DNA of 64,000 nt from the NCBI GenBank assembly GCA_030390025.1, contig CM059437.1:54684001-54748000 (forward strand). Reading direction: 5' to 3'. The position numbers and the translations under genes are program-made. Origin of the DNA: Squalus acanthias (Eukaryota). The notes beneath the pieces are model-generated. The model was not told where the DNA came from. It saw only the letters and a list, made by a program, of their open reading frames with translations, and made no database searches. Positions 1,317 through 49,010 of this stretch are shown one piece after another (the first letter of the stretch is position 1; every line of letters starts with the position of its first letter).

Positions 1317-1390
1317 GTCTCCGTGGCTTAGCTGGTCGAAGAGCTTGTCTAGTATACAGGGGAGCCTGGCTTCGATTCCCAACGTGGCAT
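1317..1390 (+). pseudogene. tRNA-Thr(AGT) pseudogene
   Basis: GTCTCCGTGGCTTAGCTGGTCGAAGAGCTTGTCTAGTATACAGG...TTCGATTCCCAACGTGGCA aligns full length to vertebrate tRNA-Thr(AGT) with about a dozen substitutions. A T-run follows. Confidence 0.8.
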
Positions 1391-1938
1391 TTTTTAAAGA
1401 ACAAAATATTCTCTTATAATCCCACAGAGGTTGGTTGCTTCTCGTTTGAAAGTGCTGCAATCCTTTGGGATGGGAACGGATAAAGGCACGTCACAAATAC
1501 ATATTAAAGTCTGACTGTCATTCGGCCAACATGCTAACATGTCCTCCAGTCTGCAACAGAAAGTTATCGGTTTATTAATGCCGATTAAAACAATTATTCA
1601 TCGTGATACTGCGTTTAATTATATGTTCGTGTAATTGATTTAATAAACTGCACAACTGTTTAATAAAAATCAGACCGAAAATCAAACACGTGCTCTGGTT
1701 GCACCGAATTCCAACACCTGGCCCACCAAGGAACGCTCCACCCAGCAGCTGTCAGAGCTCTAAATATACTGGGTGCATTCCCGCTAGATACAAATGTATT
1801 CCTGACATGTGTTCGATGTAAATGTTTATTATCTCTGCAAGTTACAAGTGTCTAAAGATATATCTGAATTCATTATTCATTTATTGGGACGCATCTGTCT
1901 AATTGTGAATTGAGGCAGTGCATTCCAGATCCCAACAA

Positions 1939-4900: not shown

Positions 4901-5204
4901 ATAGACAGTTTCCTAGAAGTAAAGGGCATTAAGGGTTACGGGGAGCGGGCAGGAATTTGGACATGAGTCTAGGTTCGGATCGGTCATGGCCCTGTGGGTA
5001 GTGGAGCGGGCCCAGGGACCGTGTAGCCTGATTCTGCTCCTATTTCGTGTGTGCAATTCTGTTAGATGCAGGAGATGGTTCTGTGATAGTAGATAGTAGA
5101 TTGGCGGTTAGGATCAGATCAGCCATGATCTTATTGAATGGCGGAGCAGGCTCGAGGGGCCGATTGGCCTACTCCTGCTCCTATTTCTTATGTTCTTATG
5201 TTCT
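1939..5204 (+). mobile_element. CR1 LINE (end of ORF1 plus ORF2 EN/RT), inserted into an older antisense CR1 fragment inside the hAT element
   Basis: EN motifs LYLNARSIRNK, AITETW, GDFN and SDH; RT motifs [10 protein letters not shown] and FADD. The 3' tail is (TTCTTATG)n. Putative TSD AACAA at 1934-1938 and 5205-5209. Confidence 0.93.
1979..4965 (+). pseudogene. CR1 ORF2 (APE endonuclease-reverse transcriptase), disabled
   Basis: ORFs 1979-2875 and 2876-4795 are separated by an in-frame TGA, with a further disruption near 4793. Confidence 0.9.
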
Positions 5205-5570
5205 AACAACTCGCAGTGTAAAAAAAAATTGTTCCTAATGTCGCCTCGGATTCTTCTGCCAATTACCTTCAATCTGTTTCCTCTGGTCACCGACTCTTTA
5301 ACCACTGGAAAAATGTTTCTCCTCACTTACGATATCAAACCCGTTCATGAAATAAAACACCTCTGTCAAAACCTCTGCTCTAAGGAGAACAACCCCAGTT
5401 TCTCCATGCCCCCACACTCTGAAATCCCTCATCCCTGGTACCAATCCAATAAATCACTTCTGTTGATTTCTTCCTTCTAAAAAATAACTACAGTGAAACG
5501 CTTCTGAGAAAAAGCACGTACAGAATAAAAAAGTGAGAAATAAATACTGAGCAAAACGGATGTGAATGTT

Positions 5571-5653
5571 TAAGAACATAAGAAATAGGAGCAGGAGTAG
5601 GCCATTCGGCCTTCGAGCCTACTCCGCCATTCAATGAGATCATGGCTGATCTT
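5571..5653 (-). mobile_element. Very short CR1 3'-end insertion
   Basis: TAAGAACATAAGAAATAGGAGCAGGAGTAGGCC...CATGGCTGATC is the reverse complement of the CR1 3' terminus seen elsewhere in the window. Confidence 0.85.
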
Positions 5654-5776
5654 AGAAGGTGAAATAACAGAAGATCTGGGTTTTATGATTGGTCAGTGAG
5701 AGGAATCCATCTTTCAACCGGGCTTTGGCCGTTCGATTTACTGATAAAGACAGACAGAGAGAATTGTTGCATACAG

Positions 5777-6737
5777 GACCGGCTAGCGCAGTCGGTAGCA
5801 CATGAGACTCTTAGGGGTAAAAATTAGGTCGCGCCCCATTTGGGGCGCAAATATCGTCTGGACGCAAATATTAGCGCCTGGCGCTAATTATCGGCACTGA
5901 CTGGAAACTTCACTTTTACCGCCCCGGGAGGTGAGTAGAGCGCTAAATCAGGCGCTGCACACCTGTCTTAAGGCGCAAAGGCCAAGGAGTGAGGCGCTAA
6001 CTCAGAGCGCTGGCGAAGCTCATGTAATGTCAGTCAGCAATGGAACACACACACAATGGCACGGGCCAGTTCTTAAAGGGGATGGTTAATCTTGCTTTCC
6101 ATCCACATCCTGTTCATTGCAGCCTTGAATCTCGGCCTGGAGAGACTTGCACATCAAATGTGCTGGAAAGAACAATGGAGAGTACCAGGCAAAGAGCTCA
6201 TAGTGCAGCTCCCACAGTCTCTGCTAAATCGATACATGAAATGGCAAATCAAAATGAACCTGCAAAGTGCTGCTCAGTACCCAAAACTCCTTCACACAAC
6301 GTTGAATCTCTCCAGAAGTCTCTCCCTCTCTCTCTCAGAATGCGTAGTTCAAAAATGCCACCAACAATAAAAGACAGGAAGAGGCCCCCTTTAAATAGCG
6401 CCCCCCCCCCAGCCCACAGCGATTGATAGCGTTCCAGTCTTCTGGTCGTTGGATGCGCCAGGCGGTAAGGCAGGGGGCGCCACTCAATTTCCGCTCCGGG
6501 GCGCCACAAGGGCGTTGCACCATGGAATGACGTCATAATCTGCACGCGCAGGTGGTCGCAGCGGTAAGTTTTAGCACCGCCGCACAATCTCTAGTTAAGT
6601 TCCCGAGCGGCGCAAATATCGCTGTGCCCGGGCGTTAGCGGCTTTGCGCCCCATTAGCGCCCTCTTAAGGCACTAACGGGAGGCGCAACCAACTGAATTT
6701 TTACCCCGGGTCGTGGGTTCCAGCCCCAAGTTGGGCG
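5777..6737 (+). pseudogene. tRNA-Lys(CTT) pseudogene split at the anticodon loop by a MITE
   Basis: 5' half GACCGGCTAGCGCAGTCGGTAGCACATGAGACTCTTA (5777-5813) and 3' half GGGTCGTGGGTTCCAGCCCCAAGTTGGGCG (6708-6737) match vertebrate tRNA-Lys(CTT). ATCTCA is missing at the junction. Confidence 0.9.
5814..6707. mobile_element. ~890-bp non-autonomous TIR element (PIF/Harbinger-like MITE), copy 1
   Basis: TIRs GGGGTAAAAATT / AATTTTTACCCC with GCGCC-rich subterminal regions. A near-identical inverted copy lies at 22046-22938. Confidence 0.85.
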
Positions 6738-7216
6738 GTTATTTTTACTGCCGATTTTACAGGAGATCCCCAGCTCTGAATTCCGCGGCAGAGAGTCCAA
6801 GGAGTGTCTGATGTAAATGAGATTCAACAACAATATCAGAAAATCTCTCCATGATTCTGAAATCTTATCTCTCTCTCGTTGAACTTCATATCATTTCTCC
6901 GTCAGTGCGGCTCAGTGGGACTTCGGGCCACTCTCGCTCTTCACAATGCATCAGTGCCGGGAAAACAACGGGGAATTTTACACACATGTTGTGCTCTGTA
7001 ACTTTTTATAAAAACTTCAGTATACTTCACTCCGTGTCCAACCCTGTGAGTTCTCCCCTGGTGTGTCAGCTTTAGATGTTTATCAACACTTCAGCAGAAA
7101 ATTAACATAACATGAGCTCCGAGATCTGATCGGGTCCCATTACCCCGAAGTGATTAATAAACAGGAGGGATTCGAGTTTCTTTAAAAGAATGACACGAAA
7201 ATCACTTTGATGTGAG

Positions 7217-7244
7217 GCCGAAATAGCTCAGGTGGAATTCGGCG
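7217..7244 (+). pseudogene. Internally deleted tRNA-Phe(GAA) remnant
   Basis: GCCGAAATAGCTCAG is the exact 5' end of vertebrate tRNA-Phe, joined to its 3' end TTCGGC and followed by TTTT. Confidence 0.6.
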
Positions 7245-7751
7245 GCTTTTAGATATTTTGTGTTTCTTTCTTTGGGTCCTTTTCTCGAACTTACCAGTTT
7301 AAGCTGAAGTCTTTTATCCGCCACTGAAGGGTTGGGTTTGAATAGAGAGAGACATGAAGGATGGAAACAATTTCTATTTGCTGTATTTAGCTTTTATTTA
7401 TCTATCTCCTTCTGCCCCTTTCTCTGGTTTTTGTCTCTCTCGGTGCCGGGTGAACATTTGATTTGATGCATTTGTCCTAAACTGATGCCTTTTACACATC
7501 TCGCGGTGCTCAGACACGCTCTGTCTGTCTGTTACTGCTTGTGATTATTAACGGGAACAGGCCGCGAGTTAAACTTTTATCAGCAAACTGAAGAAAGACA
7601 AATAAACAGAGAGATGTGTTGCTCGGCCCAGTGCAAAGGTGAAATGGATGTTATTGAAAATAATTTCCCCCTGACAGTTTGTGTAGATTTTTTGTAAAGT
7701 CTGGATTTTCAATGTCAGGAGAAACCGAAAAGGTAACAAATAAACTGCTGA

Positions 7752-7824
7752 TGACCCGTACAGGGATTAAACCCGTGCCCTTAGCGATATTAGCACCACG
7801 CTCTAAACAACTGTGATAACAGCT
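7752..7824 (-). pseudogene. tRNA-Ile(AAT) pseudogene
   Basis: The reverse complement ...CAGTTGTTTAGAGCGTGGTGCTAATATCGCTAAGGGCACGGGTTTAATCCCTGTACGGGTCA matches vertebrate tRNA-Ile(AAT) with multiple substitutions. Confidence 0.8.
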
Positions 7825-7833
7825 GTCCGGATT

Positions 7834-7854
7834 GTTCGAGCCCCACGCTGGGCG
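7834..7854 (+). pseudogene. 3' fragment of a second tRNA-Lys(CTT)
   Basis: GTTCGAGCCCCACGCTGGGCG matches the T-arm and acceptor stem of tRNA-Lys(CTT) at 20/21 positions. Confidence 0.65.
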
Positions 7855-8873
7855 GTTTGTGTTTTACTTCTCACACTGGGTCACAGAGTTATTGTACAGA
7901 TAATGAACACACCACATCCCCTAAACATGATTCCGATATAAAATAATCACTGTTCGATTAAATCGATAGTAACAGAGAAAGAGCATTTAATTGTGAAAAG
8001 AATGATTGCACTAACAGTGAAGGGGAATCTGCCGGCCTCCGCCATTCTAATCCTGTGACTGTGGGAGTTTGGTTCGGGCAGAGGATTCACTGTGACGACA
8101 CGAATACCAACGCCCACCACCCCTCCGCCGCCCCACCCCCCCACCCCGCCCCCCGCCGCCCACCATCCATGTTAAACCTGAAAAGTGTCTGGCAAAAATT
8201 CGGAACAGGCGGGGAGGAAGTAACTTTTCGGAGAGGTTTGTGTTTCTGAATCCCTAAAACTTCTGGCTCTTTTTGACATGTCCTCATTCAATGTACAGAC
8301 CCTCTCCTCAGTCTGCCCCTCGAGACCCGTCACCTCACATTTCTCTCCAGTTAATTTCAAAACATGTTTTACACACCCCTCCAGGATTGTCCTGGAGTCC
8401 CCAATACTGTGTCAATTGTAGCACTTTCTGAAATACTACCCGTGTCATGTGTTAGTCAAGAGAGACAGAGGGGAATTAGACAGACCAAGCGTCGCTGAGC
8501 CTTTGCTGTAGTGAAACAGGGACTCATTTCATGACACATTGCTACAGCTTTCGGAATAGAGGGAGCTTACAGAGACCTAATGGGTTCCACCGAAACAAAA
8601 TAGTTTGAGGTGTTGGCAGGCAGGACAGATAGAATGTGGTGAGTGTTTAAACTAGATGTGGAGGTTGTTGCTGTAGTTGTTCTATGGAGTTCCTTCAAGA
8701 GGTGATTCTGAATGCAATGGATCAACGTGTACCCATGCAAAGCAAAGGTACTGAGCGTCATTACAGTCCAGCCTGGTTCAACGGAACGAGCAAACAATTC
8801 ATCCAAAAGAGAAAAAGGGATTTAAGGCCATGAGGGTAAATGGCACAGAATTCAGGCGGCTTCAAAACCATAA

Positions 8874-8968
8874 GAAATAGCAACAGAAATCACTGGAAAA
8901 ACTCAGCAGGCCAGGCAGCATCCGTGGAGAGAGAAACAGAGTTAACGTTTCAGGTCGAAGACTTTTCG
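8874..8968 (-). mobile_element. Penelope-like element terminal fragment with a minimal hammerhead-like motif
   Basis: Homologous to 40820-40920. Flanked by the direct repeat TCAAAACCATAA (8862-8873 and 8969-8980). Confidence 0.6.
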
Positions 8969-10479
8969 TCAAAACCATAAAGCAAGACAAGAGTGTAAAA
9001 ACTGCAACAATATGGCGAAGAACAATTTCACATTGAACAGGGCAAGTGAAGAGAAGGGTAATAATAGTGCCAGAGGTAAGTTGTGACATTATTCACAAAA
9101 TGTTTTAAACAGCTTTTGATGAGGATGTAGTGGTCCGCACAAAGGAAAAGGTTGGGAACCGCTGCCATAGAGGCTTGCGTTAAAGCCATGGCTGGGGAAG
9201 TCGGCCCCTCAGCCATTGTAGCGGCCTCTAAAATGTACGGCAAGGCTGTGTTCCTCCTGGGGTCGGGGCGGGCAGGTGTCCCTGGCCGTCACGAACGGAC
9301 TCACCATCGGCGGGACCTTCCTGCCGGTGGATCCGCTTGAGGCCACCGCGCAGCGAATCGTCCTTTCAAACGCCCCGCCCTTTGTTCCGGGTGAGCTCCT
9401 CCTCCCCCACCTACGTCAACTGGGGGAGGTGAGGTCGGGGTTTAATCCGATCCCGCTCGGCGGCAGGGAGGTCAGCCTCCGCACATCTTCTCCTTCCTGC
9501 GCCAGCTGTTTATCCAGCTGGTGCGGGAGGAGGACACAGAGGACGCGTTTGTCGTCCAACATGAGGGGACCGCCTACCGCGTCTTCTGGACGTCGGACGG
9601 TGTGCGATGCCATGCCTGGAAGGAGGTGGGGCACATAAGAAAGAACTGCCCCGCCTCCAAGGCCGCCAAAACATCTGAGGCGGCTGAGGCTGGCGCAGCC
9701 GCCGCTCCTCCCCCCGTTTCTGTCCGCGCTCCGCGACACCCGATGCGCGGTCAACGCTGGAGGTCAACGCCATCACAGCCTCCGGCGGAGGGGAGTGGGA
9801 GTGTCCGATCGGAAGGAAGGCACGGACGAAAAGCAAACACCTTCAGGCACGTCCGCTTGACATACAGGATGAGCTACCCGGGCTTACACCCCCGTACCTT
9901 GCGCAGGAGGCGGCGGTGCTCGAGAGTGCGGGGGGCCTCGTGCCTGGGTCTGCTTCCGCAACCGCTGAGTCGACGAAATCAAGACCTGCGGCCGGGCCCA
10001 GGCCCGAGTGACCCGAGCAAACCGTTCAACAGGAGGGAGCGGAGGTGGAGGCCTCGGTACAGATAGAGGTCTCCCAACCTCTGTGTCCCTTCACACTGAA
10101 AAGGAGGCGCAAAGCCCTGGAGGAGGAGCAGGACCGCGAGGAACAGAGTCCCTCCTCGCAAGGGGAGTCAGCGCTCGCCACGGGGGCTGCGCACCAGCCC
10201 CCCCCCCCCCCCGCCCACCGACACCGTCACCAACACTCGGCAGGAGTCGCCTGTCCCTCGAGAGGGTACGACAGATGAGTCTGTCCATCCTGTGCCTCCT
10301 GGGGATGGGGAAGAGACCCTGCTCATGGGGGGGGGGGATGCGGGAAATACCCGCGGAGGAACTATATCGTGAACCATTGTTTCTCGCCAGGTCGGGCGTC
10401 CTGGAGAACGGGGTGGGCGAGGTCGAAGAGGCTGAGCCCGCCGTATACGGTCAAGACTATTCCCAGGTGCTGCTCGACC

Positions 10480-12992
10480 AGTCATCATGGGTGACTTTAA
10501 TTTACATATAGTTTGGGCTAACCAAATTAGTAAAAATACTGTGGAGGAGGAATTCCTAGAATGTTTACGAGATGGTTTTCTGGAACAATATGTCGAGGAA
10601 CCAACCAGCGATCAGGCCATCTTAGACTGGGTATTATGTAACAAGAAAGGATTAATTAGCAATCTTGTTGTACGATGCCCCTTGGGTCAGAGTGATCATA
10701 ATATGATAGAATTCTTCATTAGGATGGAGAGTGAAGTAGTTGAATCAGAGACTAGGGTCCTGAATTTAAATAAAGGAAACTACGATGGCATGAGGCGCGA
10801 ATTGGGTAGGATTGATTGGAGAATGTCACTCAAGGGGTTGACGGTGGATAGGCAATGGCAAACATTCAAAGACTGCATGGATGAACTATAGAATTTGTTC
10901 ATCCCAGTGTGGCATAAGAATAACACAAAAAGGGTGACTCAACCGTGGCTAACAAGGGAAATTAGGGATAGCATAAGATCCAAGGAGAGGGCATATAAAT
11001 TGGCCAGAAAAAGCGGTAGCCCTGAGGATTGGGAGCAGTTTAGGATTCAACAAAGGAGGACAAAGGGATTAATTAAGAAGGGGAAAATAGAATATGAAAG
11101 TAAATTTGCTGGGAACATAAAAACTGACTGTAAGAGCTTTTATAGATATGTGAAGAGAAAACGATTAGTGAAATCAAGTGTAGGTCCCTTGCAGTCAGAA
11201 GTGGGGGAAGTTATAATGGGGAACAAAGAAATGGCAGACCAATTAAATGCATATTTTGGTTCTGTCTTCACAAAGGAGGACACAAATAACCTCCCAGAGA
11301 TGTTGGAGAACATAGGGTCTGATGAAAGGGAGGAACTGAAAGAAATCAGTATTTGCAGGGAAATGGTGTTAGGGAAATTGATGGGATTGAAGGCCGATAA
11401 ATCCACAGGGCCTGATAATCTACATCCTAGGGTACTTAAGGAAGTGGCCCTAGAAATAGTAGATGCATTGCTGATCATCTTCCAACATTCGATGGAATCT
11501 GTAACTGTACCCATGGATTGGAGGATAGCTAATGTTACCACACTGTTCAAAAAGGGTGGTAGAGAGAAAGTGGGGAATTACAGACCGGTAAGCCTGACAT
11601 CGGTATTGGGGAAAATGCTAGAGTCCATAATAAAGGATGTAATAGCTGAGCACTTGAAAAACAGTGACAGGATCGGACAAAGTCAACATGGATTTACAAA
11701 AGGTAAATCGTGCTTGACTAATCTACTGGAATTTTTTGAGGATGTAACTGGGAAAATAGATAAGGGAGAACCAGTAGATGTGGTTTATTTGGACTTTCAA
11801 AAGGCTTTCGATAAGGTCCCGCATAAGAGATTAGCGTGTAAAGTTAAGGCACATGGGATTGGGGGCAAGGTATTGACTTGGATAGAGAACTGGTTGGCGG
11901 ACAGAAAGCAGAGAGTTGGAATTAATGGGTCTTTTTCCGAGTGGCAAGCAGTGACTAGTGGCGTACCGCAGGGATCGGTCCTTGGACCCCAGCTATTCAC
12001 AATATACATTAATGATCTAGATAAGGGAACTAAATGTAATATCTCCAAGTTTGCAGATGACACAAAGCTGGGTGGGAGTGTGTGCTGCGAGGAGGATACC
12101 GAGAAACTCCAGGATGATTTCGACAGGTTGGGTGAGTGGGCAGAAGCGTGGCAGATGCAATATAACGTGGATAAGTGCGAGGTTATCCACTTTGGTGTCA
12201 AAAACAGAAAGGCAGACTATTATCTGAATGGCAATAGATTGGGAGAAGGGGAAGTGCAACGAAACCTGGGTGTCCTTGTGCACCAGTCGCTGAAAGTAAT
12301 CATGCAGGTGCAGCAGGCGGTGAAGAAGGCAAATGGCATGTTGGCCTTCATAGCGAAAGGGTTTGAGTATAGGAACAGGGATGTCCTGCTGCAGTTGTAC
12401 AGGGCCTTGGTGAGGCCACAAATTGAGTACTGTGTGCAGTTTTGGTCGCCTTATCTGAGGAAGGATGTTCTTGCCATGGAAGGAGTTCAGCGAAGATTCA
12501 CAAGGCTGATACCTGGGATGGCAGGAATGACATATGAGGAGAGATTGGGTCGATTGGGCTTATACTCGCTGGAGTATAGAAGAATGAGAGGGGATCTCAT
12601 CGAAACATATAAAATTCTGACAGGTCTGGACAAACTAGATGCAGGAAGAATGTTCCCGATGGTCGGAGAGTCCAGAACCAGGGGTCATAATCTAAGGATA
12701 ACGGGTAAGCCAGTTAGGACAGAAATGAGGAAGAATTTCTTCACCCAGAGAGTGGTGAACCTGTGGAATTCTCTACCACAGAAGGTAGTTGAGGCCAAGT
12801 CATTAAATATATTCAAGAATGAGTTAGATATATTTCTTAAAGCTAAAGGTATCAAGGGATATGGGGAGAAGGCAGGTACAGGGTACTGAGTTTGGATGAT
12901 CAGCCATGATCTCATAGAATGGCGGAGCAGGCTCGAGGAGCCGAATATACCACTCCTGCTCCTATCTTCTATGTTTCTATCTATGTTTCTAT
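10480..12992 (+). mobile_element. 5'-truncated CR1 LINE inserted in Tx1 ORF1
   Basis: Starts within the EN domain (IIMGDFN). A 664-aa RT ORF spans 10895-12889. The tail is TCTATGTTTCTAT. The flanks rejoin as CTCGACC-TGGTTGA, as in copies B and C. Confidence 0.93.
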
Positions 12993-13661
12993 ACCTGGTT
13001 GATGGGTCTAGCGAAGGTCCCCGGTCAGCTGGGTCGGAGGATGGTGGCGGTGAAGGGGAAGGCCTGCTGACTCCAGCTCCGACGCTGGCGCCGGGGGTTT
13101 TGGGAGAACTGGCACTAATGTACTCCCCGGTTTCCCCGTGCACCCCGGTGCCGGGGACGGAGGGGGGCCCTGAGCCGCCGCCGCATCCTGACCTGGCGCC
13201 TCTGGAGGAGCCCAGGGAGGACTCCTCTGCCGCCGATCCTGGGGGTGGGATCGGGGCAGAGGTAGGGGCTGCTGATGGCGACCCCCCAGAGGAGGACGGG
13301 GACCCGGCGGAGGACACTAAGGATGACACGGACTCTGTCGCCAGCGAGGCAGCAGATGCCCTCATGACCCCCTCCGGGCCACCCCTCATCCCTGTTGTGG
13401 AACTCCGGGACTTTGTGGCCATGTGCCAGGGTCGCCAAGATATAATCCGGCTGGCCATTGATAAATGGTCGGATCTGGCGCTGCTCATTTGCCCTGTCCA
13501 TGCCGCCATCAAAACCATGGGCACAGATGGAGGCTTGGGCCCGGCCGAGCGGCGTCGGATCCGGAAGTTCCTCGCTGGGCTGAGAAGGGAGTGGCGGTCG
13601 ACTAGCAGCCGCGCTCCCTCCTCCCATTAGGGTTAGGTAGATGTTGCACTATGCTCTTGTC

Positions 13662-16600
13662 ATGAAGATAACCATAGCCTGCCTCAACATCAATGGCAGC
13701 AGAGAGGCACTCCGTAGATTTAATAACTTCTCGTTCCTTCGGGAAGGGAGGCATGCGGTGTGCTTCCTGCAGGAAACTCACACCGTTCCGGGAGACGAGG
13801 CCACGTGGCTCCTGGAGTGGCGAGGAGGGGTCAACATGAGTCACCTCTCCAACATTTCCGGCGGGGTGGCTATCTTGCTGGCCCCGCATTTTCAGCCGGA
13901 GATCTAGGGGGTCAAGGAGCATGTGCTGGGCCGCTTGCTCCAGGTCACTGTTCGCCTGGGGGGCGTGCAACTCCATTTAGTGAGCGTGTACGCCCCCAGG
14001 CCGGTGCGCAACAAGTGCGCTTCTTCGAAGAAGTGTCCGCTCTTCTGGGCACCATTGACGTCGGCGAGTGCGTCATCCTCGGGGGGGATTTTAATTGTAC
14101 CCTCGAGGTGAGGGACCAATCCGGTCCCCCGCAAAGCCTGGCGGCAACGGTGAAGTTCAGGAACCTGGTCGGGTCCCTCGATTTGGTGGACATCTGGCGG
14201 GATTTCCATCCCGACTCTCGCGCCTTCACTTGGGTGGGGTCTGGAGGAGGAAGGTCCAGAAACGACCGCCTTTATATTTCCCGGGCGTACGTTGGCTGCG
14301 TTCCGGCGGCTTCCATGCGGCCGGTGCCGTGCATGGACCACCTGGTGTGGGCAGAGCTCGCTCCATTGCGTGCACTGGGGGGGTCCGCGTACTGGCATTT
14401 TAACAACCTGCTGCTGGAGGACGGGCGGTTCCGGGTTTCGTTTCGTCGGTTCTGTGCCGACTGGAGAAGGAAGCAGGGGGGCTTCCCCTCCTTGAGGCTA
14501 TGGTGGGACGTGGGCAATGCTCATGTCCGTCTCTTCTGTCAAGAGTATGCGAGGGGGTCGACCAAGAGGCGGGAGGCCTGGGTCGGGCGGTTGGAGAGGG
14601 ACATGCTCGACCTGGAGTCCCGTCTCGATCAAGTCGTCGAAGACCCGGCACTGCGGAAGGTGTACGAAGAGAAGAAGGGTGCGCTGAAGGACCTGCAGTT
14701 CGTCGGGTCCCGAGGCGCGTACATGAGGTCGCGGATTCAGTTCCTCTGGGAACTGGACCACTGCTCCCCCTTCTTCTACTCGCTGGAAAAAAGACGGGGG
14801 GTCCGTAAGCAGCTCTTGGGGCTGCTGGCCGACGACGGATCTCTGATCTCGGATCCCCAGGGGATCAGCACGGAGACCCGGGCCTATTACAGGGCTCTGT
14901 TCTCTCCGGATCCATCCAGCGAGGATGCGCGCAGAGTCTTGTGGGAGGATCTGCCAAAGGTCGGCCCGGAGGGCGCCGAAAAATTGGACGCTCCACTAAG
15001 CTTGGGGAGCTGACCGGCGCCCTCGGACAGCTCTCGAGTGGAAAGTCCCCGGGGCTGGACGGGCTGACCGTGGAGTTCCACAGGGCATTCTGGGACGTCT
15101 TGGGGGCGACTACGTGTGGGTCCTGGGGGAAAGTCTGGGGACCGGGAAGATGCCCCTCTTTTGGTGCAGGGTGGTCATCGTCTTGCTGCCCAAGAGGGGT
15201 GATCACCGCCTCTTAAAAAACTGGTGCCCGTCTCCCTCCTCAGCACGGACTATAAAATTTTTGCCAGGGCCATGTCTGCGTGCCTTGGCACCATGCTGGC
15301 CTACATGATCCACCCCGACCAGTCCTACACGGTCCCGGGCCGGTCCATCCATGATAACATCCATCTCGTCCGGGATCTGGTCCACCTTTCCCAGAGGGCT
15401 GGTCTGTCGGTCGCCTTCCTTTCCCTGGATCAGGAGAAGGCGTTCGACAGGGTGGATCACGAGTATCTTTTCGGAACTCTGTGCGCATTCGGGTTCGGGA
15501 GGCACTTTGTTGACTGGATCCGACTTCTGTACTCCGCCGCGGAGTGTCTGATTAAAGTTAACGAGTCTTTGACGGTGCCCCTTCCCTTCGGGAAGGGGCT
15601 TCGTCAGGGATTCCCCATGTCTGGTCAGTTATACGCCGTTTGCGTGGAGCCTTTCCTATGCCTCTTGCGGAAGAGGTTGACGGGACTGTCTCTGCAAGGG
15701 CTAGGCGTGGAGGTCGTCCTCTCGGCTTACGCCAATGACGTGCTCCTCATGGTCACGGATCCCGTCGACTTGCGGAGGATGCGAGAATGCCAGCAGATTT
15801 ACTCGGATGCATCCTCCGCCAAGATCAACTGGGAGAAATGTTCTGGACTCCTGGTGGGCCAGTGGCGGGTGGACTCACTGTCGGAGGAGTTCAGGCACTT
15901 CACCTGGAGAACAAAGCATCTCCTCTACTTGGGAGTCTACCTCGGCCCTGCTGCGGACACCTGGCCGACGAACTGGCAAGAGCTGGAGGCCAAAGTCACC
16001 GCTCGCCTAGGACGCTGGACGGGGTTGCTCTGAGTGTTGTCCTACAGGGGTCGAGTGCTGGTCATAAACCAGCTGGTGGCCGCCATGTTGTGGTACTGGT
16101 TGGTCACTTTGATCCCTCCCCCTGCGTTTGTTGCCAAGATACAGAAGAAGCTCATCGACTTCTTCTGGGACAAAGGAAGCACTGGGTCTCTGCCACGGTT
16201 GTGTGTCTCCCACTTAGGGAGGGCGGTCAGGCGCTGGTACGCCTTCGCACCCAGGCGGTGACTTTCCGTCTTCAGACGCTGCAGAGATACCTTTCCGTCG
16301 AGAATCCTCCCAGATGGTGTGCGCTGGTGACGTATTTCTTCCGCCAGATGCACGGCCTCAACTATGACATGCAGCTCCTGTTTGTGGAATTCGGCCGCAC
16401 TGCGTGCCTACCTGTGGGAGCTGCCTGTCTTCTACCAGGAACTGCTATGGGTCTGGAACCAAGTCGCCTCCAGGCGGAATTCTCCCCCATCAGGAGTGGT
16501 GGCTCTCTTTCGGGAGCCGCTGCTCAGGAATCCGCACCTCCACGTCAGACGGATCGGGTGGCTGGCGGAGGGCAGGGCTGTGCCTGGAAAGCTGACCAGA

Positions 16601-17554
16601 GTCGGGGACCTGATCGATGGCGGAGGAGTGGGTTGGATGGCAGTGGAGGAGTTGGCGCAGTGCCTCTCCTGGGTCAACATCTGGCGCGCGGCCAAAGCCA
16701 TCGAGTCGCTGAAAGTGGCACGGGGCCCGGACTCCACTAGGTGTATCGAGGAGGCTCAAGCACGTGGGGCGATCCCGTCTCAACTGACCCCCAGTTCGGA
16801 CGGAATTCCTCATCGGCGCACGGCCCCAAAACCCCTCTCAGGAACCGACGCCTCACAACTTGAGCTGGCTCGGGGAAATGCCCTCCGTGCCCTTTAGTTC
16901 TGCACGGAGGGGTTTCCTGTACGGGCTGCTCCTGCACACTCTCCACTTTGCCATCTTCGCCTGCAGTCCGGACACGCCTTGGCGTGCCATCTTGTCATCC
17001 GGCGGAGGCAGAGGTCCCCAATGGAGGGCTCTCTATGTGGAATCCTCCCCTTTTCTATTGGGGACTTGGCCTGGAGGGTGTTGCACGGAGCAGTCCCGTG
17101 CAATCAGCTTTTAAGTAGTTTCACGGAATCCCAGGGCACCTGTCCTTTTTGCGGCCTGGAGGAGTCTGTTTTCCATGTGTATATAGAGTGCCAGAGGTTG
17201 CAGCTCCTGTTATATTATTTGAAGGGGCTGCTCCTCGGTTTTTGGTTGCACTTCAGTCCCACGCTCCTGATCTACGGTCACCCGGTGCGGAGGGGAGCGG
17301 ACAGGTCGGAGGACCACCTCGTAGGACTGCTCCTGGGCCTGGCCAAAGTGGCCATTAACAGGTCCAGGCAGAGGGCGGTCGAGGGGGTCGTTCGGCCCAA
17401 TTGCCTGCCTCTCTTCCGCGGCTATGTTTGTTTTCGGGTGGCCCTGGAGATGGAGCACGTGGTGACCGCTGGCACACTTGAAGCCTTCCGAGAACGGTGG
17501 GCACCGCGGGGACTGGAGTGCATCATCTACCCGGACAATGTAATTTTAATTTAA
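13662..17554 (+). pseudogene. Tx1 ORF2 (APE endonuclease, RT, C-terminal CCHC), disabled
   Basis: Motifs MKITIACLNINGSR, FLQETH, GGDFNC, LDQEKAFDRV, SAYANDV (YADD mutated) and CPFCGLEESVFHVYIEC. Multiple stops and frameshifts. Confidence 0.9.
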
Positions 17555-17760
17555 TGTGAAGAGTTTTAGTTGAAGTTCTGTTAATTTACAGTAGTTATAT
17601 GTTTACTCAAAAGAGTACAAGGCCTACAATTCAGAGCAGCTGAAGGCAGTTAATTAGGGGAACTTGATTAAACTGGTTCTCCTGTAGCAAGGACAGGGCC
17701 CAGCAAGCTCTTTTCTTTCAAGGCCTATAAAAAAAGACTTTGAAGAGCGATTTTGCTCCG

Positions 17761-17852
17761 AGTGCAGTTTCAACAGAATGCTGCGAGTTGGGTGAGTCAG
17801 GGAGTTAGGTGAGGAGTGGAAAGAGGAGCTCCCTTGCTTCGCCTTTGTTTTT
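17761..17852 (+). repeat. Direct repeat X, copy 0 (Tx1 to CR1 junction)
   Basis: AGTGCAGTTTCAACAG...CCTTTGTTTTT recurs at 45696, 53118 and 60494. It starts 35 nt after TATAAAA (17726). Confidence 0.85.
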
Positions 17853-20800
17853 CCTAACTTTTCACCCTGTAGGAATTGGTTCTTACATTACATCAAGGAA
17901 ACAGTGCAAGAGCGGGAGCAGTCAAACAAACACAACTGCGAAACTGCTGAAGTGACATCACATCCAGAGAAGGAGCTGATTGGAAATTAGGACCTGGTGA
18001 GTATTTCCACAGTCCAGTCGTTAAAGTCAAAGAAAGATCTCTAGTTTAGAGTAAGTTGTGTTTAAACGGAAGTAAGGTCCCGAGTGTATTTAATATTTTT
18101 TAACTTAAAGGGAGTAAAGGGAGGAAATTAAGGGTAGGACATGGCAGGGCAGCTCGGCTGCATGGAGTGCTCCTCCTGTGCTATGTGGGAAGTCAGGGAC
18201 ACTTTCGGTGTCCAGGGGCAAACACATGTGCAGGAAGTGTCTCCAGCTGCAGCTACTCGAAATCCACGTTTCGGAGGTGGAGCTGTGGCTGGAGTCACTG
18301 TGGAGCATCCGCGAAGCTGAGATCTTCACGGATAGCACGTTTAATGAGGTGGTCACACCGCAGGTAAAGAGTGCACAGGCAGACAGGAAATGGGTGACCG
18401 CTAGACAAAGTAAAAGAACTAGGAAGGTAGTGCAGGAGTCCCCTGGGTCCATTTCACTCTCCGACAGATTTTCCGTTTTGGATACTGCTGGGGGAGATGG
18501 TTTCTCAGGGGAATGCAGCAAGAGCCAAGCCCGTGGCACTATAAGTGGCTCAGCTGCACAGGAGCGGAGAAAAAGGAGTGGGAGAGCAATAGTGACAGGG
18601 GATTCTCTCGTAAGGGCAACAGATAGACGTTTCTGTGGCCGCAGACGTGACTCCAGGATGGTATGTTGCCTCCCTGGTGCCAGGGTCAAGGATGTCACTG
18701 AACGGCTGCAGGGCATTCTGAAGGGGGAGGGCGAACAGTCAGAGGTCGTGGTTCACATTGGTACCAACTACATGGGTAGAAAGAGGGATGAGGTCCTGCA
18801 ACAAGAATTTAGGGAGCTAGGTAGCAGATTAAAAAGCAGGATCTCAAAGGTTGTAAACCCTGGATTACTGCCGGTGCCACGTGCTAGTGAGTATAGGAAT
18901 AGCAGGATAGAGCAGATGAATGCATGGCTAAAGAGCTGGTGCAGGAGTGAGGGCTTTAGATTCCTGGATCACTGGGTCTGCTTCTGGGGAAGGTGGGACC
19001 TGTAAAAGTCGGACGGGTTGCACCTGAACCGGAACGGAACCAGCATGCTTGTGGGGAGGTTTGCTAGTACTGTTGTGGGGGGGGGGGGTGGAGGGTGAAA
19101 CTAACTTGGCAGGGGGATAGGATACGGAGTGGACCTATAGTAGGGGGTGATGCACAGACAAATATAAAGGAAAAAACAAGTCAGCCTGGAAGGCAGAGCA
19201 AATATGTAATGGCACAAGGGAGTATGGCAAGGCTGGATGTCTTGCGAGTAAGGCAGATGAATTGAAGGTGTTGATGAACACATGGGAGTATGATATTGTT
19301 GCTATCACAGAGACATGGTTGAGGGAGGGGCAGGACTGGCAGCTCAATATTCCGGGGTATAGAATCTTCAGGCGAGACAGAGGTGGGTGTAAAAGAGGAG
19401 GGGTTGTCGCAATATTAATCAAGGAGTCAATTACTGCTGTAAGGAGGGATGATATCTAAGCAGGTTCCTCTAATGAGGCCATATGGGCAGAACTTAATAA
19501 CAAAAAGGGGGCAAGCATATTGCTGGGAGTGTACTATAGGCCCCCAAACAGTCAGGGGGAGATACAGGAACAGATATGTAGGCAAATATCAGAGAAGTGT
19601 AGAAATAATAGGGTAATAATAGTTGAGGATTTCAACTGCAACAATATTAACTGGGATAGTCAGAGTGTGAAAGGCTTAGAGGGTGCGGAATTCTTAAAGT
19701 GCATCCAGGAGAGCTTTCTGAGCCAGCATGTAGAATATCCTACAAGAGAGGGGGTGGTATTGGAACTAATTCCAGGGAATGTAGCCGGGGAAGTGGTAGA
19801 AGTGTCAGTAGGAGAGCATTTTGGTGACAGTGACCACAATTCGGTGAGATTTAAGGTCGTCATGGATAAGGACAAAGATGGACCGGAAATAAAGGTTCTA
19901 AATTGGGGGAAGGCCGATTTTAATATGATAAGGCAGGATCTGGCCAAAGTGGACTGGGATCAGCTACTTGTAGGAACATCCACATCAGAGCAGTGGGAGT
20001 CTTTCAGAAAGGAAATAGAGAGAGTACAACGCCAACATGTTCCCATAAAGGTCAAGGGTGGGACCAACAAACCCAGGGATCCCTGGATGTCAAGGGATAT
20101 ACAAGAATGGATTAGGGAAAAAAGGGAGGCTTTTGGCAGATACAAAGGAGTTAAAACAGTGGAAGCCCTGGAGGAATATAGAAAGTGCAGGGGGGTACTT
20201 CAAAAAGAAATTAGGAGAGCGAAGAGGGGGCATGAAAAAACAATAGCGGGCAAAATAAAGGAAAATCCCAAGGTGTTTTCTAAGTATATAAAGGGAAACA
20301 GGATAACCAGGGAAAGAGTAGGGCCCATTAGGGACCAAAGTGGCAATCTGTGTGTAGAGCCAGAAGATGTAGGTGAGGTTTTAAATGAATATTTTACTTT
20401 TGTGTTCACTATGGAGAAGGACGATGTAGGCATAGAAATCAGGCAGGGGGATTGTGATACAATTGAACAAATTAGCATTGAGAGGGAACAAGTACTTGCG
20501 GTTTTAGCAGACTTAAAAGTGGATAAATCCCCAGGCCCTGACGAGATGTATCCCAGGCTGCTGTGTGAGGCAAGGGAGGAGATTGCAGGGGCTCTGACAC
20601 AAATTTTCAGAACCACTCTGGATACAGGGGAGGTGCCAGAGGACTGGAGGACAGCTAACGTAGTACCTTTATTCAAGAAGTGTAGTAGGGATAAACCAGG
20701 GAATTGCAGGCCAGTGAGCCCAGCATCAGTGGTAGGGAAATCATTGGAACAATTCTGAGGGACAGAATTAGTCTCCACTTGGAGAGGCAAGGATTAATCA

Positions 20801-22045
20801 AGGGTACTCAGCATGGCTTTGTCAGGGGAGATCATGTCCAACCAATTTGATTGAATTTTTCGAGGGGGTGACAAGGTCCGTGGATGAGGGTAGTACAGTT
20901 GATGTAGTCTACATGGACTTCAGTAAGGCTTTTGACAAAGTCCCGCATAGGAGACTGGTCAAGAAGGTAAGAGCCCATGGGATCCAGGGCAATTTGGCAC
21001 ATTGGATCCAAAATTGGCTTCGTGGCAGGAGGCAGAGGGTGATGGTCGAAGGTTGTTTTGTGACTGGAAACCTGTGTCCAGTGGTGCACCGCAGGGATCG
21101 GTGCTGGGTCCTTTGCTGTTTGTAGTGTACATTCATGATTTAGATATGAATGTAGGAGGTATGATCAGTAAGTTCGCAGATGACACGAAAATTGGTGGAG
21201 TGGTAAATAGCGAGGAGGGACGCTTCAGGCTACAGGATGATATAGACGGGTTGATTAGATGGGCAGAACAGTGGCAAATGGAATTTAACCCTGAAAAGTG
21301 TGAGGTGATGCATTTTGGGAGGACTAACAAGGCAAGGGAATACACAACGAATGGTAGGACCCACTGAAGTACAGAGGATCAGAGGACCTTGGTGTGAATG
21401 TACATAGATCCCTGAAGGCAACAGGCCAGGCAGATAAGGTGGTTAAAAAGGCATATGGGATACTTGCCTTCATTAGCTGAGGCATAGAATGTAAGAGCAG
21501 GGAGGTTATGATGTAGCTGTACAAAACGCTAGTTAGGCCACAGGAGGGATGTGATTGCATTGGAGAGGGTGCAGAGCAGATTCACCAGAATGTTACCTGG
21601 GCTGGAGCGCTTCAGCTAACAAGAGAGACTGGACAGGCTGGGGTTGTTTTCCTTCGAGCAGAGAAGGCTGAGGGGGGACCTGACAGAGGTGTACAAAATT
21701 ATGAGGGGCATAGATAGGGTAGATAGAAAGGAACTTTTCCCCTTCGTATAGGGGTCGATAAACAGGGGCCATAGTTTCAAGTTAAGGGGCAGGAGGTTTA
21801 GAGGGGATTTGAGGAAAATATTTTTCACCCAGAGGGTGGTTGGAATCTTAAACTCACTGCCTGAAAGGGTGATAGAGGCAGGAGCCATCACAACATTCAA
21901 GAAGCATTTAGATGAGCACTTGAAACGCCGTACCATACAAGGCTACGGACCAAATGCTGGACAATGGGATTAGAATAAACGGGGCTTGATGGCCGGTGCG
22001 GACACGATGAGCCGAAGGGCCTCTTTCTGTGCTGTATAACTCAAT
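17853..22045 (+). mobile_element. Near full-length CR1 LINE with 5' UTR, ORF1 and ORF2 (disabled)
   Basis: ORF1 starts at 18141. ORF2 has EN (AITETW) and RT (FADD) motifs broken by stops and frameshifts. The 3' end reads CTGTGCTGTATAACTC. A paralogue lies at 60585-64000. Confidence 0.9.
18141..19104 (+). pseudogene. CR1 ORF1 (Cys-rich zinc finger, coiled coil, SGNH/GDSL esterase-like domain)
   Basis: CSSCAMW...CRKCLQLQLL, IVTGDSLVR, VHIGTN and DGLHLN blocks. Frameshift near 18215 and a stop at 19003. Confidence 0.85.
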
Positions 22046-22938: not shown

Positions 22939-22989
22939 TAAGTCTATTGTTTCCGTCAAGAAATGTTAAACTTTTGTCACCCATCGTGT

Positions 22990-23447
22990 CTGTAAGCTCG
23001 CTATTCCGACTGATTTCACAGATTTTACTTGCAATGTGCAGAATATCACGAAGAATAAAACCTCATTATTTCGTCATATTTGTAAAGTTGCTATGGATTG
23101 GTACACAGATATCGGACAGAAAAGAATAACAGCACCTGAGATGGAGGAGTAATTTTATTACACTGTGGTATTTGTAACGTTACACTGAAACTTTGATCAG
23201 TGCAGGGTGAACACTCGGTAAAATACAGACAGCGGCATGCAGCGGACAAACAGCACATCTGTTGTCATTTGAATTGTTCCACGTACAATCAAACATGTAA
23301 TGTCCGAATACGGAATATATTTCAAAGAAATTTTACGAATGGCATAATAGATCAATACATTAGATTCTTCAATTAGATACAGCTGGATTTCGCGATACTT
23401 GATTGAAGCGGGTTTGCCTGAGTCTCGTGTTTAACCACGCAGGATAC
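22990..23447 (-). pseudogene. Remnant of a second Ig light-chain cluster: C-exon 3' end, 3' UTR and 3' flank
   Basis: The reverse strand of 23447-23373 encodes SCVVKHETQANPLQSSIAKSSCI*, versus TCVVKHESQANPLQTSIARSSCM* in the intact gene. 22990-23372 aligns to 34440-34827. Confidence 0.9.
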
Positions 23448-34827: not shown

Positions 34828-35150
34828 TCACATACAGCTGGATCTGGCGATGCTTGTTTGAAGCGGGTTTGCCTGAGACTCGTGTTTAACCACACAGGTG
34901 TAAAGCTCATTTGAGTTCCACTCTGAGGCTGGAAGAGTCAGATAACTGCTCACACTGAACGTGTTGTCCGTCTCCTGCTGGATCCGACTGGTCTCAACGC
35001 CATTCCCCCGGACACTGCCATCTACAGTCCACTCAATCTCCACAGCGCCCGGGATGAAACCGTTCACCAAACACACCAGGGTCGCTGTGTTCTTTGCTGC
35101 GATTTGATCGGATGAAGGCGGAAGAACAGACACCGAGGGGGCCCGCGGAT
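34828..35150 (-). CDS. IGLC: Ig light chain constant exon (shark type II / lambda-like)
   Basis: Acceptor TTTCAG|AT. Encodes (N)PRAPSVSVLPPSSDQIAAKNTATLVCLVNGFIPGAVEIEWTVDG...FSVSSYLTL...YTCVVKH...SSCM*, a C1-set domain with a penultimate interchain Cys. Confidence 0.96.
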
Positions 35151-35544
35151 CTGAAACGTAGAATACAATTAAAGGATATCCATACTTAAGTAACTTAAAA
35201 AAAAGTCAGAATCAATGTGTTACTTTCTTCAAATCTTACAATAAAATTCGGCGTCACTTTACAAACGTATATGAAATTTAATATAACGGAAGCTCAACCG
35301 TGTCAATTCTCCAATCACAGGGGCCCGCAGTTCTAGAACGTTTATAACCTGAGAACATTTTCCTATTTTTCCTACATGGAAAGGAACGTGTAACAAATAT
35401 TTCCATGGAAATATGATCCAAACTCTGTGCATATATTATAAATCGAATTTAATATCTGTCCACTAAGATATAATTTTTCTTTCAGTTTTGTACCATTTCG
35501 TTTCCCCGTTAAACTTTAGCGCGTCTTTATAAATGTTTCCACAT

Positions 35545-36020
35545 TTCATAGAATCATAGAATTTCACAGCACAGGAGTCCATTCGACCCATCGTGCCTGT
35601 GCCGGCTGTTTGAAAGAGCTTTCGATTAGTCCCACCCCCCCGCCTTCTCCTTCCCCATAGCCCTGCACATTTTTCCTTTTCAAGTATTTATCCAATTCCC
35701 TTTTGAATGTTACTATTGAATCTGCTTCCACCACCCTTTCAGGTAGTGCATCCCAGATCATAACAATTTGCAGTTTGACAAATTTCTCCTCATCTCCACC
35801 CTGGTTCCTTTGCCAATAACCTGCTCGTGCAAAAAGTTGCTCCGTATCTGCTCTATCAAAACCCTTCATAATTTAGAACACCTCGTTAAATCTCCCTTTC
35901 ATCTTTTCTGCTCTAAGGAGAACAATCCCAGTTTCTCTAGTCTCTCTATTTAACTGAAGTTCCTCATCTCTGGTACGACGGGTACCATAAATCCCTTCTG
36001 CATCCCCTCCAAGATCTTGA
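35545..36020 (-). mobile_element. CR1 3' fragment in the J-C intron
   Basis: CATAGAAT tail and RT C-terminal homology (ORF 35564-35869). Confidence 0.8.
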
Positions 36021-38721: not shown

Positions 38722-38864
38722 CTGGTGAAATAACAAGTTATTGATTAGTCACAATTTGTGCCCTTCGAATATTGCTTATAATTCGGGTCTATTCAATTCA
38801 AGCACAAGAAAAAATCAAGGCAATGTAAAAAGCAGGGATATTGAAGCTTACGTTCTGTACTTAC

Positions 38865-48979: not shown

Positions 48980-49010
48980 AGTAAGGTAGAGGTTGCACTA
49001 TGCTCTTGTC

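What the first reader, a model, noticed from the sequence alone, without database searches (positions are those of the whole stretch)
17555..18141. Identical Tx1-to-CR1 fusion junction occurs twice: a composite of LINEs from two clades
Seen: the sequence Tx1 ORF2 stop, ~200-bp TATA-containing segment, repeat X, CR1 5' UTR, CR1 ORF1 is the same at 17555-18141 and 60290-60858, with no poly(A) between the elements. The X copies before CR1 share variants (GAATGCT, AGTTAG) that differ from those before Tx1 (GAGTGCT, AGTCAG). Known: Tx1-group elements are often target-specific, including for other transposons (Xenopus Tx1L in Tx1D). Inference: this is either a Tx1 that targets the 5' end of a CR1 family, a co-mobilised Tx1-CR1 unit, or a single fusion copied by segmental duplication of the Ig locus.
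Basis: partly seen in the sequence, partly recalled or inferred. Interest (0 to 1): 0.75.

Follow-up and report, generated by a model that had tools for sequence, protein, structure and literature searches.

The report
Shark LINE pair sharing a leader
Two unrelated jumping genes in a shark or ray antibody-gene region sit joined in the same way twice, most likely because one old dead join was copied as DNA, but the join hides a promoter-like spacer and a 92-base leader that both elements start with, which may be an undescribed way of sharing a promoter.

Summary
The junction is real but not identical (92.1%). It lies inside a collinear block of about 10 kb whose ends both leave the window, so no flanks or target-site duplications can be compared. 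A third junction was missed: Tx1-TATA segment-X-Tx1 at 52914-53209. Layout: flank-X-Tx1B-TATA-X-Tx1C-TATA-X-CR1, and Tx1A-TATA-X-CR1. All copies diverged neutrally; all three Tx1 copies are frameshifted at one ORF2 site, identically in A and B; B and C share 5-6 changes at conserved residues. Duplicated Ig light-chain DNA abuts CR1 A. Best reading (0.5): one dead junction copied by segmental duplication, unequal exchange and conversion. Against it: CR1 copies share no frameshift or stop and are slightly less diverged than Tx1 (5.5% vs 7.3%, P about 0.03). Left unexplained, and the more interesting part: X starts 34 nt behind TATAAA in 3 of 3 junctions, exactly where Tx1B's 5' end lies, and X variants follow the downstream element. 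This resembles a HeT-A/Penelope-type 3' promoter in a Tx1L-lineage element that a CR1 has tapped. Genome-wide mapping decides.

The parts
1..17554 (+). Tx1 copy A (5' end beyond window start; ORF2 13662-17554), interrupted by an 8.5-kb TIR element (681-9164) and a CR1 fragment (about 10480-13003)
17555..17759 (+). TATA segment after Tx1 A stop; TATAAA at 17726; AT-rich (39% GC)
17760..17852 (+). X, CR1-side type; holds a GT donor-like site at 17792
17853..18140 (+). CR1-side 5' region; branch-point/polypyrimidine/AG-like end at 17872 would close an 81-nt intron (pattern only)
18141..22045 (+). CR1 copy A, full length: esterase ORF1 from 18141, APE-RT ORF2 about 19150-21970, broken by frameshifts and stops; tail interrupted at 22046
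22961..23443 (-). Truncated second Ig light-chain C exon end plus 3' flank, 83.6% to 34412-34898, starting 18 bp after the element that interrupts the CR1 A tail
34828..39044 (-). Germline-joined VJ-C Ig light-chain gene: octamer 39037-39044, V-J 38375-38737, C exon about 34828-35152
45695..45787 (+). X, Tx1-side type, 5' end of Tx1 B; no TATA segment upstream
45844..45873 (+). Inner 30-bp copy of the start of X inside the Tx1 5' UTR (26 of 30 to 17758-17786; degraded in C near 53270-53290)
45788..52913 (+). Tx1 copy B body: 5' UTR, ORF1 from 46889, ORF2 49011-52913
52914..53116 (+). TATA segment after Tx1 B stop; TATAAA at 53083
53117..53209 (+). X, Tx1-side type, between Tx1 B and Tx1 C
53210..60289 (+). 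Tx1 copy C body: ORF1 from 54264 (CCHC knuckle), ORF2 56395-60289 (APE, RT, zinc finger)
60290..60492 (+). TATA segment after Tx1 C stop; TATAAA at 60459
60493..60584 (+). X, CR1-side type
60585..64000 (+). CR1 copy C: 5' region, ORF1 from 60858 (182-bp deletion at 61317), ORF2 running off the window; private insert 61964-62239
16387..16400 (+). ORF2 frameshift site common to all three Tx1 copies (A +1; B +1 near 51747-51760; C net -1 near 59128-59155)

Best explanation
One ancestral locus, X-Tx1-TATA segment-X-CR1, died and was then copied as DNA inside a duplicating Ig light-chain cluster region: a segmental duplication gave locus A and locus B/C, unequal exchange between the two X copies (or an early tandem insertion) gave the B-C tandem, and later gene conversion homogenised the 3' halves of B and C. 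The repeat of the junction therefore reports one event, not recurrent targeting. The ancestral join most likely arose because this Tx1L-lineage element has LTR-like ends (X at its 5' end, a TATA promoter plus X behind its stop codon) and a full-length CR1 came to lie directly behind X. Shown: layout, neutral divergence, shared Tx1 lesions, adjacent duplicated Ig DNA. Inferred: the duplication, conversion, promoter role and order of events.
For: Block of about 10 kb of C is collinear with A at 83-94% and runs to both window ends. Copy-private ORF2 changes are neutral: dN/dS 0.88-1.02 (A, 210 changes), 0.87-1.00 (B, 108), 0.72-0.87 (C, 107), none significant; had A's extra changes arisen in selected master elements, 68 synonymous of 210 would have P 0.012 to 6e-6 under assumed synonymous fractions of 0.5-0.65. 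CR1 A vs C also neutral: ORF2 codon positions 26/22/23 in 490 codons, ORF1 10/10/11. One ORF2 site is frameshifted in all three Tx1 copies, gap-free identical in A and B; 8 of 8 relatives in which the spacing could be measured (32 proteins examined) read through it in frame. B and C share the same derived residue at 5 of 267 or 6 of 237 conserved columns, including RT motifs; P 0.007 to 3e-5 by chance. A-run length and spacer length do not vary as independent tails would. A second, truncated Ig C segment abuts CR1 A; cartilaginous-fish light-chain genes occur as many clusters, at least 89 in skate (PMC2192082, abstract).
Against: No unique flank shared by A and C is visible, so duplication is not shown directly. 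CR1 ORF2 copies share 0 frameshifts or stops while carrying 4 (A) and 6 (C) private ones over the compared residues; P(0) is 0.08-0.29 under a dead period before the split. CR1 A-C divergence (87 of 1578 non-CpG-prone sites, 5.5%) is below Tx1 A-C (210 of 2892, 7.3%), P=0.028, P=0.044 after base-class correction. A and C share only 2 conserved-column changes, not above chance (P 0.06-0.34). B-C divergence is 7.9% in the 5' UTR but 3.1% from RT to the stop (P=8e-5), so B/C is not one clean duplication and the shared B/C lesions may come from conversion between independent insertions. A crude estimate gives about 5% for two copies hitting one 10-nt window with same-sign indels. The X type switches at its very first base, where Tx1 B's 5' end lies, which targeted insertion predicts and unequal exchange only allows.
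Confidence: 0.5

Rival explanations
1. Recurrent targeted insertion with a 3' promoter. This Tx1 ends with the TATA segment, inserts at the 5' boundary of X, and its TATA box drives the neighbour behind it from the first base of X. Tx1 copies start with X and so form head-to-tail arrays; a CR1 family acquired X as its leader, attracts Tx1 and gains a promoter. A and C are independent insertions; shared lesions come from later conversion or a defective master moved in trans.
For: X begins 34 nt after TATAAA in 3 of 3 junctions and Tx1 B starts at that same base with no TATA segment upstream; 0.4% of 63,960 window positions have TATAAA 28-36 nt upstream (post hoc). Three X sites follow the downstream element while the TATA segment groups B with C like the upstream Tx1 (A-private 10 vs B-private 2 in the segment, 4 vs 6 in X, P=0.07). 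A second 30-bp copy of X's start lies inside the Tx1 5' UTR, like a relic of an older head. RT groups with Xenopus Tx1L, a sequence-specific element (PMC1950540, passages); crocodilian Tx1 families target other transposons, LTR elements included, and carry captured heads (PMC4494074). 5' UTR divergences are near star-like.
Against: Needs the shared frameshift and the B/C lesions to be explained away; no sign of selection between masters; no target-site duplication found (an 8-bp match at the B flank has 1.5% chance and is 7 bp in A and C); only one 5' boundary is visible; TATAAA lies in an AT-rich stretch and could be the element's short A end; promoter activity untested.
Confidence: 0.22
2. 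Co-retrotransposition. A transcript starting at X runs through a dead Tx1 into an intact CR1, and CR1 ORF2 protein copies the whole 11.5-kb RNA from the CR1 tail (a 5' transduction). Tx1 is a passenger.
For: Fits the asymmetry: Tx1 carries shared lesions, CR1 ORF2 shares none, CR1 is less diverged; CR1 A has a normal 3' end against unrelated flank; the B-C-CR1 unit begins at X.
Against: No third-position excess in CR1 (26/22/23 and 10/10/11); requires repeated full-length copying of 11.5 kb (19 kb for B-C-CR1), whereas no other CR1 in the window keeps ORF1; shared CR1 ORF1 changes at conserved columns exist (5 shared vs 3 and 2 private) though they cannot be polarised with 60-68% relatives.
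Confidence: 0.15
3. The TATA-X cassette belongs to the CR1 5' region or to a third repeat, Tx1 inserted about 140 bp upstream of X, and the X at the Tx1 5' end is a captured head or very long target duplication.
For: On the CR1 side X continues into a complete intron-like unit with branch point; the 8-bp match between the B flank end (45686-45693) and 52991-52998 would be the duplication; R2 and crocodilian Tx1 capture heads (PMC3414825 abstract; PMC4494074).
Against: The cassette also precedes Tx1 C; X copies around one insertion differ by type; the B flank is not similar to the TATA segment (39-196 of 300 shuffles score as well); the Tx1 side also has an acceptor-like end.
Confidence: 0.09
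4. Both LINEs ride inside a composite DNA transposon, as Tx1L does in Tx1D.
For: Same lineage as Tx1L, whose target is a DNA transposon; passengers would be neutral.
Against: No room for a right end at locus A: after the CR1 tail comes a self-contained 0.9-kb TIR element and 18 bp later Ig C flank homology.
Confidence: 0.04

Closest known systems
Xenopus Tx1L in Tx1D; crocodilian Tx1-Mar, Tx1-8_Crp/Tx1-4_AMi, Tx1-9_AMi
   Same: Same clade; ORF2 piece 57% identical to Tx1L ORF2 over 99% of 519 aa; Tx1 elements that sit in other transposons and carry captured 5' heads (PMC4494074, passages and part 3 of 5).
   Different: Targets named in the passages read are DNA transposons, LTR elements, microsatellites and small-RNA genes, not a CR1 5' end; no TATA-X unit repeated at both ends is described there; specificity is not shown here.
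Drosophila HeT-A and Penelope pseudo-LTR tandems
   Same: Head-to-tail copies where the 3' end of the upstream copy supplies the promoter of the downstream copy; Penelope also keeps a 75-bp intron 46 bp after its start (PMC2377424, passages), like the 70/81-nt intron-like unit in X.
   Different: Different clades; Penelope's promoter is TATA-less and HeT-A uses chromosome ends; here the downstream partner can be a LINE of another clade, and no expression data exist.
TART subterminal direct repeats
   Same: A non-LTR element whose 5' sequence recurs in its 3' UTR, with starts mapped in the repeat (PMC1636488, passages).
   Different: TART repeats are long and telomeric; X is 92 bp and differs in type between the two positions.
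R2/R1 hybrid SIDEs
   Same: Sequences of two non-LTR clades joined in one unit (PMC3414825, abstract).
   Different: SIDEs are short, ORF-less and shown to move with target duplications; here two full-length elements abut and mobility as a unit is not shown.
Nested transposon clusters copied by segmental duplication (established knowledge)
   Same: Neutral decay, shared lesions, private later insertions, multicopy gene cluster next door.
   Different: Does not by itself explain why X stands at the start of both elements at TATA distance.

Membership tests
Tx1 clade (Tx1L lineage) | ORF2 with APE endonuclease, RT and C-terminal zinc finger | tested here: met
   Pfam Exo_endo_phos 4.6e-13, RVT_1 2.6e-32, zf-RVT 3.8e-7
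Tx1 clade (Tx1L lineage) | Gag-like ORF1 with CCHC knuckle | tested here: inconclusive
   zf-CCHC E=5.7e-4, 20.3 bits against a cut-off of 20.8
Tx1 clade (Tx1L lineage) | RT groups with Xenopus Tx1L | tested here: met
   Quick tree only (careful search unfinished), 23 of 120 hits plus 2 CR1 outgroups: B and C fall in a 9-row clade with Tx1L, SH-aLRT 100; nearest a stingray protein
Target-specific Tx1 | One sequence class in more than 20% of flanks genome-wide (criterion of PMC4494074) | not testable with these tools
   No cartilaginous-fish genome DNA in the collections; scans of genome contigs gave 0 matches for X and 1 unrelated bacterial locus for CR1 ORF1
Target-specific Tx1 | Target-site duplication around a copy | tested here: inconclusive
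   Only B has a visible 5' flank; best candidate 8 bp, chance 484 of 31,900 mock flank ends
Canonical CR1 | Esterase (SGNH) ORF1 | tested here: met
   Lipase_GDSL_2 1.7e-8; named hits mostly sharks and rays, up to 64%; feature per PMC13343379 passages
Canonical CR1 | APE-RT ORF2 | tested here: met
Canonical CR1 | 3' end without poly(A) | tested here: inconclusive
   A's tail has no poly(A) but is interrupted at 22046; C's end is outside the window
HeT-A/Penelope-type tandem promoter | Head-to-tail tandem copies | tested here: met
   B directly followed by C; could be a DNA-level tandem
HeT-A/Penelope-type tandem promoter | 3' end of upstream copy drives transcription of the downstream copy | not testable with these tools
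   Only TATA spacing and boundary coincidence
HeT-A/Penelope-type tandem promoter | Full-length 5' ends map at the start site set by the upstream promoter | tested here: inconclusive
   1 of 1 visible 5' end does (B, 45695)
Segmental duplicate | Shared unique flanks on both sides | not testable with these tools
   A's left and C's right flank lie outside the window
Segmental duplicate | Neutral divergence throughout | tested here: met
Segmental duplicate | Uniform divergence along the block | tested here: inconclusive
   Tx1 7.3% vs CR1 5.5%, P 0.03-0.04; 400-site bins range 4.0-8.7%
Segmental duplicate | Lesions shared by descent in both elements | tested here: inconclusive
   Met for Tx1, not seen for CR1 ORF2
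Composite DNA transposon (Tx1L-in-Tx1D type) | Terminal inverted repeats bounding the unit | tested here: not met
   None between the CR1 A tail and Ig C flank homology other than the self-contained 0.9-kb element
Small RNA gene target (snRNA, tRNA, 5S) | X matches a known RNA family or folds stably | tested here: not met
   Rfam 0 hits at gathering and at E<=0.1; no tRNA; folding z -0.5 to +0.7 in 4 of 4 copies

The most novel reading that the evidence does not exclude
A Tx1L-lineage LINE with retrovirus-like ends (R at the 5' end, U3 with a TATA box at the 3' end) that targets the first bases of its own leader, builds head-to-tail arrays in which each copy is transcribed from its upstream neighbour, and shares that leader with a CR1 family, so that CR1 offers Tx1 safe landing sites and receives a promoter: a recurring two-clade LINE partnership in a vertebrate genome, possibly also moving as one RNA.
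Probability: 0.25. Interest if true: 0.75.

Novelty: new variant of a known kind. Interest (0 to 1): 0.4.

Why it matters
If it is a duplicated dead join, it is ordinary, useful only as a clock for Ig light-chain cluster duplication and as a warning that repeated junctions in multigene arrays mimic target specificity. If the TATA-X architecture is a family trait, it would put a HeT-A/Penelope-like downstream-acting promoter, a proposed step towards LTRs, into a vertebrate APE-type LINE, add a LINE 5' end to the known Tx1 targets, and give a testable case of promoter sharing between LINE clades in genomes where CR1-group elements make up 22-34% of the DNA (PMC13343379, passage).

Tried and rejected
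X as a small RNA or pol III gene: no Rfam or tRNA hit, no stable fold. X as a plain 92-bp target duplication around Tx1 C: the two X copies flanking C are of different type and the 3' one is closer to A's (4 vs 5 differences, three diagnostic sites). A TATA-segment remnant in the B flank: not above shuffles. B/C as one clean tandem duplication: divergence is uneven. First dN/dS run ignored the shared frameshift and read about a quarter of ORF2 out of frame; replaced, which also drops about 14 codons around the site, gapped codons and three-way-different sites. In one search two of the three 'AB' columns are gap or different-residue artefacts; one search found 0 AB. In one search three of the 13 A-private columns at threshold 0.8 border a deletion. 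An 84-bp A-C identical run in the TATA segment and short internal repeats of 12-15 bp in the TATA segment and X were judged near chance and not used. External context: X pattern in genome contigs 0; CR1 ORF1 there gave one bacterial esterase-like locus (not followed); junction against plasmids 0. Protein searches gave no relative close enough (best 57-68% on long pieces) to polarise all changes and carry no genomic context. Metagenome and viral contig collections stayed unchecked. Literature: nine searches listed no paper on a Tx1-CR1 join or a 3' promoter in Tx1; the library lacks most subscription papers and Repbase entries, and no supplements were read, so absence is weak (the target tables in the PMC4494074 supplements were not seen).
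Full report
1. Setting. The window is cartilaginous-fish DNA by inference: the CR1 ORF1 has mostly shark and ray proteins as named relatives and an intact germline-joined VJ-C Ig light-chain gene lies at 34828-39044 on the minus strand. Most of the rest is decayed LINE sequence.

2. The observation. The junction exists at the stated places. It is 92.1% identical, not identical (524 matches, 45 mismatches, 18 gap columns). There is no poly(A): the longest A run is 7, 5 and 5 in the three spacers, and the run region has the same length in each. Self-comparison shows that the junction is the middle of a long collinear block: 1-680, 9165-10479, 13012-18603, 18785-19414 and 19411-21173 match 53801-64000 at 83-94%, the gaps being insertions or deletions private to one copy. 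The left end of copy A and the right end of copy C are outside the window.

3. Anatomy. There are three Tx1 copies and four X copies. Locus 1: Tx1A-TATA segment-X-CR1A. Locus 2: flank-X-Tx1B-TATA segment-X-Tx1C-TATA segment-X-CR1C. The TATA segment follows every Tx1 stop and is absent in front of B. So the spacer is not a Tx1-CR1 speciality; it also joins Tx1 to Tx1. X begins 34 nt after the first base of TATAAA in 3 of 3 junctions, near the usual TATA-to-start distance (established knowledge), and Tx1 B's homology begins at that same base. TATAAA stands 28-36 nt upstream of 0.4% of window positions (a post hoc test). X contains a donor-like GT site; on the CR1 side it runs into a branch-point, pyrimidine tract and AG (81-nt intron-like unit), on the Tx1 side into a shorter acceptor-like end (70 nt) (pattern reading only, no splice scorer was available). 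A 30-bp copy of X's start recurs inside the Tx1 5' UTR (26 of 30, E=4e-4). Of four 2:2 sites in X, three follow the downstream element and one (a CpG) does not. X is not a known RNA and does not fold unusually.

4. Identity of the elements. The Tx1 ORF2 has APE, RT and zinc-finger domains, is 57% identical to Xenopus Tx1L ORF2 against 41-48% for most fish Tx1 proteins listed, and groups with Tx1L in a quick tree of 27 rows (SH-aLRT 100; careful search not finished). The CR1 has an esterase ORF1 and APE-RT ORF2, the canonical vertebrate form (PMC13343379, passages).

5. How the copies are related. Tx1 ORF2: B-C 6.3%, A-B and A-C 8.8%. Private changes are neutral in all three (dN/dS 0.72-1.02, none significant), and A's surplus is not synonymous-rich as it would be between selected masters (with assumed master values). 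B and C share the same derived residue at 5 of 267 or 6 of 237 conserved columns, depending on the reference set (P 0.007 or lower); A and C share 2, which chance allows; A and B share 0-1. One site after the RT domain is frameshifted in all three copies, +1 in A and B with no gap between them and net -1 in C; 8 of 8 measurable relatives among 32 examined are in frame there. These are marks of DNA-level copying of dead sequence, or of a defective master moved in trans. The picture is not a clean tree: B-C differ by 7.9% in the 5' UTR and 3.1% from RT to the stop (P=8e-5), which suggests conversion. The CR1 halves are also neutral but share none of their 4 and 6 ORF2 frameshifts and stops and are a little closer than the Tx1 halves (5.5% vs 7.3%; P 0.03-0.04). 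In CR1 ORF1, 5 conserved columns deviate in both copies against 3 and 2 privately, but with relatives at 60-68% these cannot be told from family traits. A truncated second Ig C segment, 83.6% to the intact one, begins right after CR1 A, so this region has been duplicated and broken at the DNA level; that older duplication is not itself the A/C event.

6. Most likely mechanism (0.5). One ancestral X-Tx1-TATA-X-CR1 locus decayed and was duplicated with the Ig-cluster region; exchange through X or an early tandem insertion made B-C; conversion followed. Shown: layout, neutrality, shared lesions, adjacent duplicated Ig DNA. Inferred: everything about order and mechanism. The ancestral join is best read as a Tx1 with X in front and TATA plus X behind, and a CR1 directly behind X. 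Rivals: recurrent targeting of X with a 3' promoter (0.22), favoured by the boundary coincidence, the switch of lineage at X position 1 (P=0.07), the inner X relic and the Tx1L kinship; co-retrotransposition from the CR1 tail with a dead Tx1 passenger (0.15), favoured by the Tx1/CR1 asymmetry; cassette owned by CR1 or a third repeat (0.09); composite DNA transposon (0.04), with no right end at locus A. The window cannot separate the first three decisively.

7. Comparison with what is known. Tx1 elements that target other transposons and capture heads are known (PMC4494074: passages and part 3 of 5; PMC1950540 and PMC6719617: passages). Upstream copies supplying the promoter of downstream copies are known for HeT-A and Penelope (PMC2377424, passages), 5' sequence repeated at the 3' end for TART (PMC1636488, passages), and two-clade hybrids for R2/R1 SIDEs (PMC3414825, abstract). 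It works like these only if the promoter and targeting are real; membership in 'target-specific Tx1' or 'tandem-promoter element' is untested, not met or failed. Nine searches listed nothing on a Tx1-CR1 join or such ends in Tx1; Repbase and supplements were not seen.

8. Verdict. The TATA-X architecture under it is real sequence, unexplained by duplication, and cheap to test in the source assembly. Interest 0.4; novel case probability 0.25, interest 0.75 if true.

Noticed in passing
window 681-9164: 8.5-kb element inside Tx1 A ORF1 with about 16-bp terminal inverted repeats and an 8-bp target duplication, hAT-like by those features (family name from recall); it carries nested CR1 pieces and several kb of unassigned DNA.
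   Followed up: partly
window 5810-6707 and 22046-22942: Young 0.9-kb element, two copies 97.6% identical in opposite orientation, with terminal inverted repeats; one interrupts a tRNA-like sequence (about 5779-5812 and 6708-6737; ARAGORN finds no intact tRNA), the other the CR1 A tail.
   Followed up: partly
window 27525-27636 and 43947-44058: 112 bp of CR1 3' tail 100% identical in inverted orientation while neighbouring tails are 80-90% alike; recent conversion, a very young insertion or a rearrangement breakpoint.
   Followed up: no
window 22961-23443: Ig light-chain C pseudogene fragment, broken within the C exon, 83.6% to the intact gene.
   Followed up: partly
window 34828-39044 (-): Intact germline-joined VJ-C light-chain gene with leader exon and octamer; lambda-like (type II) by recall, not tested.
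   Followed up: partly
window 17997-18110 and 46460-46490, 46860-46870: Further donor-like and acceptor-like motifs in the CR1 and Tx1 5' UTRs, present in more than one copy; possible 5' UTR introns, pattern reading only.
   Followed up: no
window 10436-12889: CR1 ORF2 inserted in Tx1 A is nearly intact (one stop before a 665-aa open frame), so younger than the Tx1-CR1 join.
   Followed up: no
window 52981-53198: Short internal repeats: a 12-mer twice in the TATA segment (the second overlaps the TATA box) and a 15-mer in the segment and in X; near chance level.
   Followed up: partly
P0121, P0139: CR1 proteins filed under bacterial names in public databases on 3-4 kb contigs; probably fish DNA contamination of those assemblies.
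   Followed up: no
Tx1 ORF2, all three copies: CpG observed/expected stays 0.74-0.79 in Tx1 against 0.34 in CR1, and CpG-prone sites drive much of the raw Tx1 divergence.
   Followed up: partly
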